Position numbers and translations under genes: made by a program. Below, one piece after another: positions 17,064 through 40,687 of a stretch of 41,079 nt of DNA. The notes beneath the pieces are model-generated. The model worked only from the letters and a program-made list of their open reading frames with translations. It had not been told where the DNA came from and searched no databases. Each line of letters opens with the position of its first letter. Position 1 is the stretch's first letter. The stretch covers positions 1-41,079 of the forward strand of contig CAVRCJ010000012.1 of the NCBI GenBank assembly GCA_963719515.1. Direction: 5' to 3'. This stretch comes from an uncultured cyanobacterium (GTDB lineage: Bacteria > Cyanobacteriota > Cyanobacteriia > CAKZMO01).

Positions 17064-19526
17064 TTACTGCGCGACGCCTGCTAAGGCTGGCACCTGCTTA
17101 CAGGTGACGCTCACTCGCTGATCCTCATCAACATCTAGGACGGCTGTGTCACCAGCGGCGATCGCCCCCGATAAGAGCGCATCGGTCAATGGGTCTTCCA
17201 CCAGCTTCGTGATGGCGCGGCGCAGCGGACGAGCTCCGTAGCTGGGATCATAGCCTTGCTCAACGAGGTGCTGCTTAAAGGCATCAGTGACCTCAATAGC
17301 AAGCTCTTGGGAAGCCAGACGGGCATTGACGTCCTGCAGAAGAACATCAGCAATCTCCATGACCTCATTCCGGTTGAGCTGACGGAAGACAATCACCTCA
17401 TCGATGCGGTTGATGAACTCAGGCCGGAAGGTCTGCTTCATCTGCTCTTGGACTTGATCCCGCATGCGATCGTACTGGGCTTCGGTGAGGGATGCATCGC
17501 TAAGCTCGAAGCCAAACCCGCGACCGCCACGCTCGATGGCGCGAGATCCGAGGTTAGAGGTCATCACCAGCAAAGTGTCCTTAAAGCTGACGGTGCGGCC
17601 TTTAGCATCGGTGAGACGACCGTCGTCTAGAATCTGCAGCATCAGGTTAAAGACGTCAGGATGAGCCTTCTCAATCTCGTCCAGCAGCACCACGCTATAG
17701 GGCTTGCGGCGTACGGCTTCGGTGAGATAGCCTCCCTCGTCGTAGCCCACAAATCCCGGCGGGGAGCCAATCAGTTTGGAGACCGTATGGCGCTCCATGT
17801 ACTCGGACATGTCAATGCGAATCATGGCCTCTTCTGAACCGAATACAGAGGCAGCTAGGGCCTTAGTCAGCTCGGTTTTACCCACCCCTGTCGGGCCGGT
17901 GAACAGCAGGCTGGCAATGGGCCGCTCAGGATTTTTGAGGCTGACCCGCGATCGCCGTACGGCCCTAGCCACGGCAGAAACAGCTTCTTCTTGTCCGACC
18001 ACCCGCTCGTGCAGGGTGTCCTCAAGGTGAATCAGCAGCGCCGACTCGCTCTTAGTAAGCCGGTTAACGGGAATGCCCGTCCAAGAGGCAACGATTTCGG
18101 CAATGTCCTCAGCGGTTACGGCACCAATGGGCTTGGCGTCAGGCGAATTAGCCTGAACTTGGGTTCGGATTTGAGCTTCTAGCTCGCTCTCCTGCTGGTA
18201 ATGAGTGGCGGCCTGCTTGAAGTCCTGGGCGGCGATCGCCTCGTCTTTCTGGGCGCGCACCTGCCGCAGCGACTGGCGCAGGTCTTGGGTCGCACCCAAG
18301 GTGCTATGGCGCAGCTTCACCCGAGAGCCCGCCTCGTCAATCAGATCGATAGCCTTGTCGGGTAGATGGCGATCGGCGATGTAGCGGTCAGATAGGGTGG
18401 CGGCAGCCTCAACAGCCTCATCAGTGATAGTGAGGCGATGGTGCTGCTCGTAGCGGCTGCGGATGCCCCGCAAAATGTCTACGGTTTCCTCTACAGAAGG
18501 TGGCGTCACCATCACGGGCTGGAATCGCCGCTCTAAGGCCGCGTCCTTCTCGATGTGCTGGCGATACTCGTTGAGAGTGGTGGCCCCGATGCACTGTAGC
18601 TCACCCCGCGCTAGGGCGGGCTTCAGCAGGTTGGCAGCATCTAGGCCGCCCTCAACGCCGCCTGCGCCGACCAGGGTGTGGATCTCGTCGATGACCAAGA
18701 TGACATTGCCCGCCTTTTGAACATCGGCGACAATCTGCTTGAGGCGCTCTTCAAAGTCACCGCGAAAGCGAGTTCCACTCAGCAACCGGCCCATTTCTAA
18801 GGAGATGACGCGCTGGTCTTGAAGGCCTTCAGGAACGTCCTGATTGACGATGCGCTGGGCCAATCCCTCAGCGATCGCTGTTTTGCCAACGCCGGGTTCG
18901 CCAATTAGCACCGGGTTATTCTTGCTGCGGCGTCCGAGAATCTGCACTACGCGCTCAATTTCCTGCGATCGCCCAATGACGGGGTCAATGTAGCCTTCGG
19001 CGGCGCGCTGGGTGAGGTCGACACCAAATTCTTCTAGCGCTTTAGCATCGCCAGAGGAGGGCGATCGCTCTTTGCGCGCGCCGACGGGAACAGCTTCTTT
19101 CAAGTTTTGGACAACAGTCTCTTCGACCACATGGGGGTCGACGCCTAGGTTTTGCATCACTTTGACGGCTACGCTGTCTTTTGTGCGCGTCAGGGTCAAT
19201 AGAATGTGCTCTGGCAAAACAGAGTCGCTGTTGAATCGACGCGCTTCCTGTAGCGCCTGCTCAAGAACGCGCTTGGTTTTTGGAGTGAGGGGAATATCGG
19301 TAACGCGAGAGGGCTGGCTTTGTCCCACCAGTTTTTCAACTTCGGAGCGGGCATCCTCTAGCACCAGACCAGAGTCCTGTAAAATTTGCGCGGCTTTGCT
19401 GGTACGGTTGCCCATTAGCCCTAGCAGCAGCTGCTCGGTGCCAACAAAGTTTTGGCCAAGCTGCCGGGCTTCTCGCTGGGCCTGAATGATGACCGCAACA
19501 GCATCACTATCGAAATACTCAAACAT
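17064..19526 (-). CDS. clpC: ATP-dependent Clp protease ATP-binding subunit (ClpC-type)
   Basis: Clp-N repeats, two Walker A motifs ([16 protein letters not shown]), short UVR-type middle domain, GFGF ClpP-docking loop. Confidence 0.9.
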
Positions 19527-19731
19527 GGGTGCTCTCCAAGGGCTGGGTCTATCACAGACCGAATGGCAATGAGCTACAAGCCTCTATAGATTCAAGGGAG
19601 TAGCCATAAGTGAACGATGTCTAACAACCTTAATTTTTGGCCACAGACTCGACGAATCTACTAATGATGGAGGCTAACGAAACTCATTGATTAACTTTCT
19701 TAAATGTATCGATTGAAACGGGAACCGCGCA

Positions 19732-19769
19732 GTAGGGAGATCCGTATGAGGAGGTGAGGTTTGGGAAAC
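19732..19769 (-). promoter_or_regulatory. Tandem degenerate K-box-like elements upstream of clpC
   Basis: Minus strand GTTTCCCAAACCTCAC and ATACGGATCTCCCTAC, 22 nt apart, each a partial match to GTTCGGNNANCCNNAC. Confidence 0.4.
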
Positions 19770-19783
19770 TGGAAGACTCACCT

Positions 19784-19960
19784 ATAGAGCGAGGCAGGAC
19801 AGCTTGACGTACTCCCCGCCCTGAAGAGCGGGGATTCTGGAATCAAGCAGCGATCGCAGGCTGAGCCTGTCTGACATCGCCTAGCCCACGGGTTGACGCC
19901 CCAACCCGTTGAATGTTTATTGCAGCATTCAAGTCTCGATCGTGATGTTCGTTGCAAATA
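19784..19960 (-). ncRNA. Predicted TnpB omega/reRNA (scaffold + flank-derived guide)
   Basis: Inferred from TnpB biology: scaffold overlaps the tnpB 3' end and RE hairpin; guide about GCTGTCCTGCCTCGCTCTAT (19803-19784); 5' boundary is a guess. Confidence 0.5.
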
Positions 19961-20967
19961 GGGCAATCCCACTGCCGTTGTTTTAGATCTAACTCCTTCA
20001 GTACGTGCCCACAACAGCTACAAGTTTTAGAGCTGGGATACCACTGGTCGATGAATGCTACGGTCTTGCCTTTTTTCTTTGCCACCCACTGAAGGATTTC
20101 GAGAAATTCAGCTAGGGCTAGGTCCGATATCTTCCGGCCCCATAGCCGCTGCATCCCTTTCAGGTTCAGCGTCTCAAAGTAGAGCGCATCGTAGGTATCG
20201 GTTAGCCGGTGGGCAAGCTTCCAAAACCAATCTCGTCGCCTATTGGCTATGGCCTCATGGCAGCGAGCTAGATTTAGTCTTGCCCTGTGCCAGTTTGCCG
20301 ACTTTTTTCGCTTGCGCGATAGGTTGCGGCTAGCTCGGCAAAGGTCTTTGAGCGATGCTTTCAGGAATTCAGGAGACTCGATTTGAGTACCATCTGACAA
20401 AGTGAGAAACGTCTTCAGTCCAAAATCAGCACCAGCGGTTTTACCCGTCTCGATGCCTTGAACTGGTTCAGCTTCCTGGTCCACCACAACGGCTAAAAAC
20501 AGCTCACCCAAAGGCGATCGCTTCACCGTGACGGTCTTAACCTTGCCCTCTATCTCCCTTGAATTCCAATACTGGTAGACCCTGCTGCCTATCTTGATAC
20601 GACCACCATTGAGCAGCTTGTATCCCGCCTGTTTTAGGGTGAACGACTTGTATCGCCTTACCTTCTGAAAGCTAGGCGGCCTATAGCCTTTGCCGTGATG
20701 CTTAAAGAACAGCTGGTATGCCTTTTCAATTCGCTGGCAGATGTCCTGCACAGCCTGAGACCCCACCAACTGCCAAAACGGATTGCGCCTCCGTAGCTTG
20801 GCAATATGAGACTGAAGTTTAGAGCAATTGAGGTGTTTGCCCCACATACGGTAGTACCGTTTGTGGAGAGCAATGCAGTGGTTCCAAATCACCCCAGCAG
20901 CATTAATAGTGCGTTTTAGGTGCCGGTTCCGCTTGTGCTCGTATATCTTAAACTTCAATGTTCTCAT
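19843..20967 (-). CDS. tnpB: RNA-guided endonuclease TnpB (374 aa)
   Basis: RuvC-I GADFGLK, RuvC-II FETLN, zinc finger CSCC..CPIC, RuvC-III DRDLNAAINI; MRTLKFKIY taken as the true start. Confidence 0.95.
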   Translation of the reverse strand: MRTLKFKIYEHKRNRHLKRTINAAGVIWNHCIALHKRYYRMWGKHLNCSKLQSHIAKLRRRNPFWQLVGSQAVQDICQRIEKAYQLFFKHHGKGYRPPSFQKVRRYKSFTLKQAGYKLLNGGRIKIGSRVYQYWNSREIEGKVKTVTVKRSPLGELFLAVVVDQEAEPVQGIETGKTAGADFGLKTFLTLSDGTQIESPEFLKASLKDLCRASRNLSRKRKKSANWHRARLNLARCHEAIANRRRDWFWKLAHRLTDTYDALYFETLNLKGMQRLWGRKISDLALAEFLEILQWVAKKKGKTVAFIDQWYPSSKTCSCCGHVLKELDLKQRQWDCPICNEHHDRDLNAAINIQRVGASTRGLGDVRQAQPAIAA

Positions 20968-21010
20968 ACTGTTTATGTTAGCATAGATGCGTAGGCATTG
21001 TGTAGGCAGT

Positions 21011-21151
21011 ATGGCAAAAGGACAGCTTAATTTAAGAGTCTCTATTAAAAGATTGCAAAAGCTTAGGGCGATTGCAAAAGAGAGGGACAAGACCATGACT
21101 CAACTGCTAGAAGATTGGATAGATCGCCTACATTTAGAGAAGCCGTCCTGA
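21011..21151 (+). CDS. Small ribbon-helix-helix (CopG/Arc-like) protein, 46 aa (not in the ORF track)
   Basis: Manual translation MAKGQLNLRVSIKRLQKLRAIAKERDKTMTQLLEDWIDRLHLEKPS: alternating beta-strand QLNLRV, helix, turn, helix. Confidence 0.8.
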   Translation: MAKGQLNLRVSIKRLQKLRAIAKERDKTMTQLLEDWIDRLHLEKPS

Positions 21152-21337
21152 AGGACGGGGCTTTAGACCCATGATTTTTGGTAAGGTAGACCGGCGCGGA
21201 GCGGAGCAGCGTAGGGCCAAATAACTTGGCGGAACATTGTTCAGATATACTTAATCTCTGTTGAACCAATTTTAACGCCGTTGGGCTTCTGCCTGCAGGC
21301 AATCTGGCTCTCTCGCAAATGAGGTTGTTTGGAGGCT

Positions 21338-39040: not shown

Positions 39041-39208
39041 CAGCTCAGAATATGCCACTTCCATCGCCGCTCAAGCAGCGGTATATGCTCTCAAAAGCGC
39101 GCTCATGCTCGGGAGGACGTAGCCTTATCTTGGAAAAGCGCGAGCTGAAAAATCTAGGCTTCGAGAGATTTTAAGGAAATTTAGCTACTAGACAGGAAGC
39201 CCCGCGCT

Positions 39209-39391
39209 CTACCCGTCAGGGTGAGCGTCGGGATGAGAGTCGCGGTCGTCGATGGGGCTCAATGCCCCGGAGACGGCCAAACTTCGGATGTACTCCTTAA
39301 GGACATCGTTGATAGTTCTTTCGGTCATCTCACAATACTTGTCAAGATGCTGCTTTTCTCTGTCAGCGGCTCTAATAGTTATTTGCTGCAT
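39209..39391 (-). CDS. Small ribbon-helix-helix (CopG-like) protein, 60 aa
   Basis: QITIRA strand, helix DREKQHLDKYCE, helix TINDVLKEYIRSL. Confidence 0.8.
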   Translation of the reverse strand: MQQITIRAADREKQHLDKYCEMTERTINDVLKEYIRSLAVSGALSPIDDRDSHPDAHPDG

Positions 39392-39424
39392 GTCGTTCTG
39401 ATGTCAATATGCTATCATTATTGC

Positions 39425-40621
39425 ATGAAAGTCACCCATCAGTACAAGTTGCGTCCAGCGGCTGAGCAAACGGTTACCATGACCCGATGGCTAGATATGC
39501 TTCGGGCACAGTACAACTGGTTGCTGGCTGAGCGATTCGACTGGTGGGAGATGAACCGCTGTTCGGTCAACGCCTGCCCACTCACCTGTAGCCTTGCGCC
39601 ACTCAAAGATAATCCTAATTACTACAGCCAGAAGGCTAGCCTAGTACCTCTCAAGCGAGAGCGACCCTGGTACAAGGATTTGCACTCACAAGCGCTTCAG
39701 GAGGTGACGAAGCAGGTAAAGCAGACGTTCGAGCGTTTCATCAAAGGTGATAGGAATGGTAAGCGTAGCGGCAAGCCTCGGTTCAAAGGCGCGGGGCGCT
39801 ACAGGACGTTCACGTTCCCGCAGATAAAACCTGACTGCATCGATGGAAGTCGTATTACCCTGCCTAAGATTGGCCAGGTGAAGCTAATCCTTCATCGCCC
39901 GATACCTGATGGGTTTACTGTCAAAACGGCCAAGGTGACTCGCAAAGCAGATGGTTGGTATGTGAGCCTGTTACTGGAAAACAATGCCGTTCCGATGCTT
40001 ACTCCGGATGTCGATAGGGCTAAGTCTGTCGGTGTTGACGTTGGGCTGAAGGATTTCTTGGTTACCAGTGACGGTGAGAGCGTTCCTATCCCTCAGTTCT
40101 TTCGACGCTCAGAGCGGCAGCTATCCAAGCTGCAGCGGCAGCTATCGAGACAGAAGAAGGGCTCTAACCGCTGGCGTAAGCAGGTGAATCGCATCGCCAA
40201 ACTGCATCTGAAGATATCGCGTCAGCGTCGTGATTTCTTTTCTAAGGTGTGGGATTGGCTGTTCTCAAAGTACGATGTTGTCGCTCATGAAAAGCTCAAC
40301 ATCAAAGGACTTGCTCGAACCAGACTGGCAAAGTCAATCGCTGATGCCGCATGGGGTACATTCTTGGAGATAGGCTCTTTCAAAGCCGCGAAAGCTGGAA
40401 AGATGACCATCGCTGAGAACCCACGCGGAACCAGCATTGATTGCTCGGGTTGTGGTGAGCGGGTACCAAAGACGCTGGCCGATCGGGTCCATAGTTGCCC
40501 GTCATGCGGCTTAACGATCTGTCGCGACCACAACGCGGCTATCAACCTATTGAATAGGGCTGTGGGACATCAAGCCCTTAATCTCTCAGGAAATGTCTCA
40601 GCAGTAACTGGGAGTCACTGA
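39425..40621 (+). CDS. tnpB: RNA-guided endonuclease TnpB (398 aa)
   Basis: MKVTHQYKLRP start, RuvC-I GVDVGLK, RuvC-II HEKLN, zinc finger CSGC..CPSC, RuvC-III RDHNAAINL. Confidence 0.95.
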   Translation: MKVTHQYKLRPAAEQTVTMTRWLDMLRAQYNWLLAERFDWWEMNRCSVNACPLTCSLAPLKDNPNYYSQKASLVPLKRERPWYKDLHSQALQEVTKQVKQTFERFIKGDRNGKRSGKPRFKGAGRYRTFTFPQIKPDCIDGSRITLPKIGQVKLILHRPIPDGFTVKTAKVTRKADGWYVSLLLENNAVPMLTPDVDRAKSVGVDVGLKDFLVTSDGESVPIPQFFRRSERQLSKLQRQLSRQKKGSNRWRKQVNRIAKLHLKISRQRRDFFSKVWDWLFSKYDVVAHEKLNIKGLARTRLAKSIADAAWGTFLEIGSFKAAKAGKMTIAENPRGTSIDCSGCGERVPKTLADRVHSCPSCGLTICRDHNAAINLLNRAVGHQALNLSGNVSAVTGSH

Positions 40622-40687
40622 GGAAGCCCGCGCTGTATGCGTAGCATCAGCGTCGGGAGGATGTCACTCGATCCGGTTATAGAGCAA
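40520..40687 (+). ncRNA. Predicted TnpB omega/reRNA (scaffold + flank-derived guide)
   Basis: Inferred; guide about TCGATCCGGTTATAGAGCAA (40668-40687); 5' boundary is a guess. Confidence 0.5.

What the first reader, a model, noticed from the sequence alone, without database searches (positions are those of the whole stretch)
19804..21180. TnpB element with a divergent ribbon-helix-helix gene in place of tnpA (first of two independent examples)
Seen: within clearly delimited IS605-type ends there is an intact tnpB (D-E-D RuvC triad) and an unannotated 46-aa ORF (21011-21151) on the opposite strand whose stop codon falls inside the left-end hairpin; there is no Y1 transposase. The unrelated element at 39185-40667 has the same layout. 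Established: divergent IS605-type elements carry tnpA at this position, and RHH proteins are small autorepressors. Inference: a recurring RHH-TnpB module in which a dedicated DNA-binding protein limits expression of the RNA-guided nuclease, mobilised in trans. Whether this has already been described cannot be determined from here.
Basis: partly seen in the sequence, partly recalled or inferred. Interest (0 to 1): 0.8.

Follow-up and report, generated by a model that had tools for sequence, protein, structure and literature searches.

The report
Arc-like repressor in TnpB transposon
A 1.4-kb jumping gene of a cyanobacterium carries an RNA-guided nuclease gene (tnpB) and, head-to-head with it, a real 46-residue DNA-binding protein gene that most likely turns down the element's own promoters; this arrangement was noted in 2023 and tested in a 2026 preprint, so it is a new example, not a new kind.

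Summary
Window 19804-21180 is a 1377-bp IS605-family element with IS608-type ends (TTAC target, TCAA end). It carries an intact tnpB (D181/E265/D345), no tnpA, and a divergent 46-aa ORF whose stop lies in the left-end hairpin loop. Nine near-identical copies sit at different sites in the genome, so it moves in trans. The ORF is a real ribbon-helix-helix (RHH) gene: dN/dS 0.07 over 33 disjoint pairs, AlphaFold pLDDT 92, RHH fold matches, homodimer score 0.45 against 0.00 for the best control. Relatives are common in cyanobacteria: 48 of 79 loci are divergent to tnpB, and none lies near tnpA. A 7-bp direct repeat at 11-bp spacing covers the predicted two-way promoter and is the likely operator. 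Repression itself is inferred, not shown here. The module is already described as 'Arc' (Zedaveinyte 2023; Moon et al. 2026 preprint, with ChIP-seq and reporter repression; arc+tnpB-only elements were in the ChIP-seq set). This scan also found it before on other DNA, including this genome. Verdict: new member of a known kind, low interest. Side leads: tnpA/RHH cassette swaps within one genome, and RHH mini-elements carrying a structured non-coding RNA in place of tnpB.

The parts
19804..21180 (-). IS605-family non-autonomous element, 1377 bp, IS608-type ends; 9 copies in the genome
21181..21184 (-). Target tetranucleotide TTAC next to the left end (host DNA). TTTAC in 7 of 9 copies, CTTAC here, TTGAC once; probable TAM of the TnpB (inferred)
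   Evidence: IS608 C_L is TTAC in PMC5934647 Fig. 1 legend
21161..21164 (-). AAAG, left guide sequence 5' of the left-end hairpin
   Evidence: same letters as IS608 G_L
21143..21158 (-). Left-end subterminal hairpin; its loop holds the stop codon of the RHH gene on the other strand
21011..21151 (+). 46-aa ribbon-helix-helix (Arc-like) gene; predicted DNA-reading strand residues Q5, N7, R9
21002..21008 (-). Direct repeat copy 1 (TGCCTAC), candidate operator half-site
   Evidence: binding inferred
20991..20997 (-). Direct repeat copy 2 (TGCCTAC), 11 bp from copy 1
   Evidence: shuffle p=0.0012 for a 7-nt run at lag 11
20975..20984 (.). Near-palindromic extended -10 box readable on both strands. 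The tnpB-side hexamer ends 7 nt before the tnpB ATG, which suggests a leaderless mRNA (inferred)
   Evidence: not found by the -35/-10 consensus scan
19843..20967 (-). tnpB, 374 aa, RuvC D181/E265/D345, zinc finger C316/C319/C335/C338
19804..19837 (-). Right end: guide GAAT (19834-19837), hairpin (19814-19833), terminal TCAA (19804-19807); 3' end of the presumed omega RNA scaffold
   Evidence: IS608 G_R and C_R
39185..40667 (+). Second element of the same layout (tnpB 39425-40621, 60-aa RHH-like ORF 39391-39209), TTAG target; its family has 17 RHH-form and 3 tnpA-form loci among 22 in the genome

Best explanation
The element is a non-autonomous IS605-family transposon. A Y1 transposase made elsewhere in the genome moves it; the likely donor is the intact tnpA of the related TTAC/TCAA element on contig C16 (inferred). 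TnpB with a guide RNA from the right end would cut the empty donor site and favour retention of the element (known for the family, not tested here). The divergent 46-aa protein is an RHH homodimer (fold and dimer predicted, gene shown to be under purifying selection). Two dimers would bind the two 7-bp repeats one helical turn apart in the 43-bp spacer. That site covers the -35 region of the tnpB promoter and the start of the RHH's own transcript, so the protein would repress tnpB and itself, keeping nuclease output low as copy number rises and repressing all copies that share the operator (inferred). This is the Arc mechanism described for IS605 elements.
For: Gene is real: 33 of 33 disjoint homologue pairs have pN<pS, pooled dN/dS 0.071, differences by codon position 115/39/328. 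Fold: pLDDT 92.4, helices 12-24 and 29-39; the leading structural rows are RHH proteins such as Arc, CopG, ParG, PutA and NikR (Foldseek all E>0.6, Arc rmsd 0.7 A over 36 columns; best Z 6.4, rmsd 1.4, 43 aligned). Dimer: score 0.45 vs best control 0.00, a mark reached by 20 of 30 solved homodimers and 1 of 23 single chains; runs agree in at least 94% of contacts, pLDDT at least 77; antiparallel contacts 5-9, 6-8, 7-7. Context: 48 of 79 named-genome loci have a divergent tnpB; no Y1 transposase hit in 113 loci. Operator: identity at lag 11 is 0.49 vs 0.256 in shuffles over 77 spacers, and the half-site changes with the strand residues (by eye). Precedent: ChIP-seq, reporter repression and mutants of strand residues 5/7/9 in Moon et al..
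Against: No binding or expression data for this protein. Sequence matches to single RHH families are below curated cut-offs (best Pfam E 0.008; best solved-structure E 0.09). The dimer pass may reflect likeness to solved RHH dimers. The lag-11 control is imperfect: the second element's spacer is not significant (p=0.24), and 1 of 4 tnpA-form spacers is (p=0.008, region extended 10 nt into tnpB), with another borderline (p=0.06). The -10 box was picked by pattern, so its conservation is partly built in; 17 of 94 spacers lacked it. Moon et al. report that some Arc homologues showed no detectable binding. Homologues were found by protein similarity, which biases dN downward, and related sequences inflate the periodicity z-score.
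Confidence: 0.8

Rival explanations
1. The RHH mainly autoregulates itself or acts on other DNA (element ends, promoters of tnpA-bearing relatives, host sites) and only incidentally affects tnpB.
For: The RHH gene persists in elements that have lost tnpB: one copy on C6 of this genome and at least 16 mini-element loci elsewhere. The repeats lie over the RHH's own predicted transcript start.
Against: The repeats also lie over the -35 position of the tnpB-side promoter, and the tnpB-less elements keep that promoter in front of a conserved non-coding stretch. The tnpA-form relative on C16 lacks the repeat (p=0.30).
Confidence: 0.09
2. The RHH is an antitoxin-like inhibitor that binds the TnpB protein or its RNA complex, as modelled for the archaeal RHH/MazE-TnpB system.
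For: Altae-Tran et al. (PMC10691335, passages) co-folded an RHH with TnpB. The best Pfam match of this protein is 'antitoxin-like RHH' (E 0.008).
Against: That system has tnpB downstream of the small gene, is non-mobile and has a rearranged catalytic site; this one is divergent, mobile and canonical. The same RHH family (45-76% identical) sits beside TnpBs from under 40% to 87% identical to this one, which fits a DNA-site partner better than a protein partner. The 46 residues are nearly all RHH core, with no antitoxin tail.
Confidence: 0.05
3. The RHH activates or tunes the promoter rather than repressing it.
For: The tnpB promoter has no recognisable -35 hexamer, and the repeats sit where an activator could bind; some RHH proteins activate (Moon et al., introduction).
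Against: An extended -10 box can work without a -35 (own knowledge). The same -10 box is shared with the tnpA-form relative that has no RHH. The tested Arc repressed.
Confidence: 0.04
4. The ORF is a chance frame or a decayed piece of tnpA with no function.
For: It is short and below all curated family cut-offs; 3 of 98 extracted homologue cores carried an in-frame stop.
Against: dN/dS 0.07; other frames carry stops in 66-94 of 94 sequences; 259 cluster representatives at E<=0.001; no similarity to TnpA at these coordinates.
Confidence: 0.02

Closest known systems
Arc repressors of IS605-family transposons (Moon, Zedaveinyte, Wiegand, Sternberg, bioRxiv 10.64898/2026.09.24.754181, parts 1-4 of 6 read; first noted in Zedaveinyte et al., bioRxiv 10.1101/2023.11.20.567912, passages read)
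   Same: Small stand-alone RHH inside IS605 ends, on the strand opposite tnpB across a two-way promoter; elements with arc and tnpB alone were among those tested by ChIP-seq; some homologues are 50 aa or less and unannotated; DNA-reading residues at positions 5, 7, 9.
   Different: The two systems named in the main text are from Petroclostridium and Clostridium, and both are autonomous (they keep tnpA); the word stem 'cyanobacter' does not occur in the main text. Here the strand is Q5/N7/R9 (theirs N5/N7/T9), the candidate operator is a direct repeat (theirs oppositely oriented motifs), and no family member was found next to tnpA. Whether this family lies in their Arc clade could not be tested: supplements are closed.
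IS608 of Helicobacter pylori (PMC5934647, Fig. 1 legend read)
   Same: Identical cleavage and guide tetranucleotides (TTAC, TCAA, AAAG, GAAT) with subterminal hairpins.
   Different: IS608 encodes tnpA; this element has the RHH gene and no transposase.
RHH-type CvkR regulators (omega-like, CopG-like) of cyanobacterial type V-K CAST (bioRxiv 10.1101/2022.05.13.491168, passages read)
   Same: Small regulator gene in a conserved position and reverse orientation next to a TnpB-derived RNA-guided effector in cyanobacteria; leaderless cas12k mRNA reported there.
   Different: No Cas12k match for this nuclease; the element is a 1.4-kb IS with no room for Tn7-like genes. Homology to those CvkRs was not tested.
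Archaeal RHH/MazE-TnpB (PMC10691335, passages read)
   Same: RHH gene next to tnpB.
   Different: There tnpB is downstream of the small gene, non-mobile, with a rearranged catalytic site, proposed toxin-antitoxin pair; none of this applies here.

Membership tests
IS200/IS605 element (non-autonomous) | Inserts 3' of a fixed tetranucleotide with no target duplication | tested here: met
   TTAC 8 of 9, TGAC 1 of 9; right flanks unrelated
IS200/IS605 element (non-autonomous) | Subterminal hairpins with guide tetranucleotides and a fixed right cleavage site | tested here: met
   AAAG + hairpin, GAAT + hairpin + TCAA, as in IS608; right end conserved in related loci
IS200/IS605 element (non-autonomous) | Mobilised by a Y1 transposase in trans | tested here: inconclusive
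   Nine copies at different sites and an intact TTAC-type tnpA on C16; which TnpA acts was not tested, and no empty site was found in four congeners
TnpB | Family profile above cut-off, RuvC D-E-D, zinc finger | tested here: met
   NF040570 258.6 bits vs 100; the narrower NF038281 cut-off (425) was not reached; D181/E265/D345
TnpB | Omega RNA expression and TAM-dependent cleavage | not testable with these tools
   Needs RNA data and a cleavage assay
Ribbon-helix-helix superfamily | Strand-helix-helix monomer matching solved RHH folds | tested here: met
   48 of 82 homologues match DUF6364 and smaller sets match RHH_10, 56B_RHH, RHH_1 or Arc at E<=0.01
Ribbon-helix-helix superfamily | Homodimer with an antiparallel two-strand sheet | tested here: met
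   Model only: score 0.45 vs best control 0.00 (20 of 30 solved dimers and 1 of 23 single chains reach the mark); may pass by likeness to solved RHH dimers
IS605-encoded Arc repressor | Stand-alone RHH inside the element, opposite strand to tnpB, short two-way spacer | tested here: met
IS605-encoded Arc repressor | Binds the native transposon promoter and represses tnpB expression | not testable with these tools
   Only a candidate operator was found
IS605-encoded Arc repressor | Falls in the transposon-associated Arc clade of Moon et al. | not testable with these tools
   Their sequences are in supplements that were not available
Archaeal RHH/MazE-TnpB toxin-antitoxin | tnpB downstream of the small gene, rearranged catalytic site, non-mobile | tested here: not met
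   Divergent genes, canonical triad, nine copies
Type V-K CAST with RHH CvkR | Cas12k effector with Tn7-like genes and CRISPR array | tested here: not met
   NCBIfam names TnpB and lists no Cas12k model at E<=1; the 1377-bp element holds only tnpB and the RHH gene

The most novel reading that the evidence does not exclude
In cyanobacteria the left end + RHH + operator + two-way promoter is an exchangeable cassette with a readable recognition code (strand residues 5/7/9 against the repeat half-site). It swaps with tnpA on the same tnpB and moves between distant tnpB lineages. It also drives tnpB-less mini-elements whose only other content is a conserved, structured RNA of about 320-430 nt ending at the right end. 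These may be Arc-regulated guide-RNA cassettes that program TnpB proteins in trans, a layout not found in the papers read here.
Probability: 0.25. Interest if true: 0.55.

Novelty: new member of a known kind. Interest (0 to 1): 0.17.

Why it matters
If the reading is right, it extends Arc-type self-repression of IS605 elements to a large cyanobacterial family and gives a specific operator prediction that is cheap to test. It also bears on how 85 tnpB loci can sit in one genome without harm, and on why RHH-bearing forms outnumber tnpA-bearing forms of the same family (17 vs 3, 3 vs 2, 9 vs 1). The concept is already in print, so the gain is incremental. The tnpB-less RHH + structured RNA mini-elements are the part most worth a separate look.

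Tried and rejected
Rfam at gathering thresholds: 0 matches in the window. On 20 loci only a tRNA and one HEARO on the far side of the RHH matched, and 0 matches at E<=0.1 on 5 loci, so the mini-element RNA was not assigned to a family. The sigma-70 -35/-10 scan found no site in 20900-21200. Sequencing runs: no RNA holder listed, which is no evidence either way. Empty-site search: four congeners match the left flank to about 19765, but none matched the right flank, so no empty site was seen. The word-indexed protein search found only 3 homologues; the profile search found 259. Foldseek gave no match at E<=0.001. Solved-structure sequence searches gave only E>=0.09. A third TnpB query was out of frame and contributed nothing; distant TnpBs were recovered by Pfam instead. 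The Y1 profile had no positive control in that call. The idea that RHH forms arise by deleting tnpA from an arc-tnpA-tnpB element was considered and not supported: in-genome tnpA forms have tnpA starting within about 20-55 bp of tnpB, with no RHH match there. Literature searches for 'TnpB + leaderless + IS605' and 'TnpB + cyanobacteria + non-autonomous + IS605 + repressor' each listed one paper, neither on this point judged by listing or passages. A search for cyanobacterial miniature IS605 RNAs listed 15 of 41 papers, seen as listings only. The look-up of earlier findings by sequence returned nothing.

Full report
Observation. The window holds tnpB on the minus strand at 20967-19843 (374 aa) and a 46-aa ORF on the plus strand at 21011-21151, with 43 bp between the start codons. 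The genome (5.28 Mb, 21 contigs) has nine copies of exactly 1377 bp that differ from the window copy at 0-22 positions; all nine keep both frames intact and the D181/E265/D345 triad. The element follows TTAC in 8 of 9 copies (TGAC once), ends in TCAA, and shows no target duplication. AAAG and GAAT precede the left and right hairpins, the same four tetranucleotides given for IS608 in PMC5934647 (Fig. 1 legend). The stop codon of the small ORF lies in the left hairpin loop. No Y1 transposase is inside the element; the nearest candidate donor is an intact 132-aa TnpA on contig C16, in an element that also uses TTAC/TCAA and is 82% identical from the -10 box to the right end. Relatives come from cyanobacterial genomes or unnamed bacterial bins by their record titles.

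Is the small ORF a real RHH gene? Single-sequence Pfam matches are weak (best E 0.008). A nine-sequence profile found 259 cluster representatives at E<=0.001, matches in 54 of 401 phylum genomes searched, and 79 loci in named genomes. After dropping 3 cores with in-frame stops, 1 off register, 2 cut by contig ends, and duplicates, 94 unique 38-codon cores remained. In 33 disjoint close pairs pN<pS every time, pooled dN/dS was 0.071, and differences by codon position were 115/39/328. The other five frames gave 1.1, 3.2, 1.1, 0.17 and 4.5, with stops in 66-94 of 94 sequences. Finding homologues by protein similarity biases this downward, but the third-position excess is plain. AlphaFold2 with 82 sequences gave pLDDT 92.4 with an extended N-terminus and two helices. 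The leading structural rows are RHH proteins (Arc, CopG, ParG, PutA, NikR, SvtR), though Foldseek E-values are all above 0.6 and the best Z is 6.4 (rmsd 1.4, 43 aligned), as expected for 46 residues. The homodimer model scored 0.45 against 0.00 for the best of 3 controls (20 of 30 solved dimers and 1 of 23 single chains reach this mark; contacts agree at 94% or more; pLDDT 77 or more), with antiparallel contacts 5-9, 6-8, 7-7. It may pass by likeness to solved RHH dimers. Language-model neighbours with a Pfam label were RHH families.

Context across cyanobacteria. Of the 79 named-genome loci, 43 had a divergent tnpB by tblastn and 5 more by Pfam, 48 in all. The other 31 include 5 with short flanks, several with broken or interrupted tnpB (judged by eye), and mini-elements (below). 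No Y1 transposase was found in any of 113 loci with flanks of up to 1.5-2 kb (no positive control; some loci were fetched twice). The RHH family pairs with very different TnpBs: mean RHH identity to the window protein is 63% where TnpB identity is 60% or more (32 loci) and 58% where it is under 40% (16 loci). In this genome 85 tnpB loci were grouped. Three families have both an RHH form and a tnpA form at the same position: the family of the second window element (17 RHH, 3 tnpA among 22 loci; tnpB side 98.8% identical, left end 86%), another family (3 RHH, 2 tnpA), and this one (9 RHH, 1 tnpA relative with a different left end). So 'RHH in place of tnpA' is literally true within one genome; the direction of the swap was not determined.

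Candidate operator and promoter. The spacer has TGCCTAC twice, 11 bp apart (20991-20997 and 21002-21008; shuffle p=0.0012). Over 77 of 94 homologous spacers with a -10-like box, identity at lag 11 was 0.49 against 0.256 in shuffles; the only other clearly raised lag was 15 (0.32) (related sequences inflate the z-score). By eye the half-site follows the strand residues: a homologue from another genome with T-N-R has nearly the same repeat as the window's Q-N-R, while R-S-R proteins have a CTACCC-type repeat. Against this, the second window element's spacer is not significant (p=0.24), and one of four tnpA-form spacers is (p=0.008), one borderline (p=0.06). A near-palindromic extended -10 box (20975-20984) reads on both strands. 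On the tnpB side it ends 7 nt before the ATG, suggesting a leaderless mRNA, as reported for cas12k in Anabaena (bioRxiv 10.1101/2022.05.13.491168, passages). The box was selected by pattern, and the standard consensus scan found nothing. On this geometry the repeats cover the -35 position of the tnpB promoter and the first 18 or so bases of the RHH transcript. Binding and repression are inferred.

What is known. Two searches returned the direct precedent. Zedaveinyte et al. (bioRxiv 10.1101/2023.11.20.567912, passages) reported Arc-like RHH ORFs with TnpB, Cas12k and homing endonucleases. Moon et al. (bioRxiv 10.64898/2026.09.24.754181; abstract, introduction, results, discussion and part of the methods read) showed by ChIP-seq that Arc binds the two-way promoter. 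They showed by reporter that one Arc represses the tnpB promoter, with strand residues 5, 7 and 9 contributing, and included elements with arc and tnpB alone in the ChIP-seq set; some homologues showed no binding. The main text does not mention cyanobacteria, but the supplements, which list the homologues, could not be seen and may include them. The archaeal RHH/MazE-TnpB system (PMC10691335, passages) differs in gene order, mobility and catalytic site. Earlier reports of this scan reached the same verdict on other DNA, including the second element's family in this genome; I had found the papers before that look-up.

Side finding. Twelve RHH loci without tnpB share a non-coding stretch that starts just after the tnpB-side -10 box and ends in a right-end-like hairpin, and four more form a second group. 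Nine of the twelve were aligned: 28 of 57 predicted pairs have a change on both sides, against 13.2 in shuffles and 3-9 in slid controls. The structure was derived from the same nine related sequences, so this is a lead and not proof; no Rfam family matched. This genome has one RHH mini-element without tnpB (C6, protein 68% identical) and 53 matches to a 393-bp miniature with the second element's ends and no RHH.

Verdict. It is a new member of a known kind: it works like IS605 Arc with probability about 0.8, while membership of their exact clade is untested. Interest 0.17.

Noticed in passing
L040, L061, L070, L078, L081, L083, L084, L111, L117, L119, L122, L123 (e.g. L111:1673-2034); second group L079, L090, L091, L093: Miniature IS605-type elements: left end, RHH of the same family, two-way promoter, then a conserved non-coding stretch (324-430 nt in 9 of the 10 loci measured, 578 nt in one) with compensatory changes that ends at a right-end-like hairpin; no tnpB, no Rfam match. 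Possible Arc-regulated guide or regulatory RNA.
   Followed up: partly
G000 C6:326324-326870 (L015): Single-copy mini-element with the ends of the C16 tnpA-bearing element, an RHH 68% identical to the window's with a different strand and repeat, and about 300 nt of non-coding DNA in place of tnpB.
   Followed up: partly
G000, e.g. C10:106405-106797: 53 matches to a 393-bp miniature element with the ends of the second window element, no RHH and no tnpB.
   Followed up: partly
window 39185-40667; G000 C10:312171-313975, C1, C5; C10:509012-510302 vs C10:164025-165850: Two further families occur as tnpA form and RHH form with a shared left end and tnpB; a third RHH (46 aa, 23% identical to the window's) with a TGCTACAA repeat at 11-bp spacing is in three copies.
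   Followed up: partly
window 20968-20983 and related loci: Extended -10 box ends 6-8 nt before the tnpB start codon in many relatives, suggesting leaderless tnpB mRNA.
   Followed up: partly
window 21107 and 21185: The window copy has a private change (residue 33 is Leu; Val in the other eight copies) and sits after CTTAC, not the TTTAC of seven other copies, so its own empty site may be a poorer TnpB target.
   Followed up: no
window 19543-19803: Parts of the region upstream of the Clp-type ATPase gene (17064-19526) are 86-91% conserved in four congeners (about 19672-19767); the element inserted about 40 bp beyond the conserved block.
   Followed up: no
L082:1657-2010: An RHH of this family lies head-to-head with a TniQ-like fragment (Pfam E 5e-4).
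   Followed up: no
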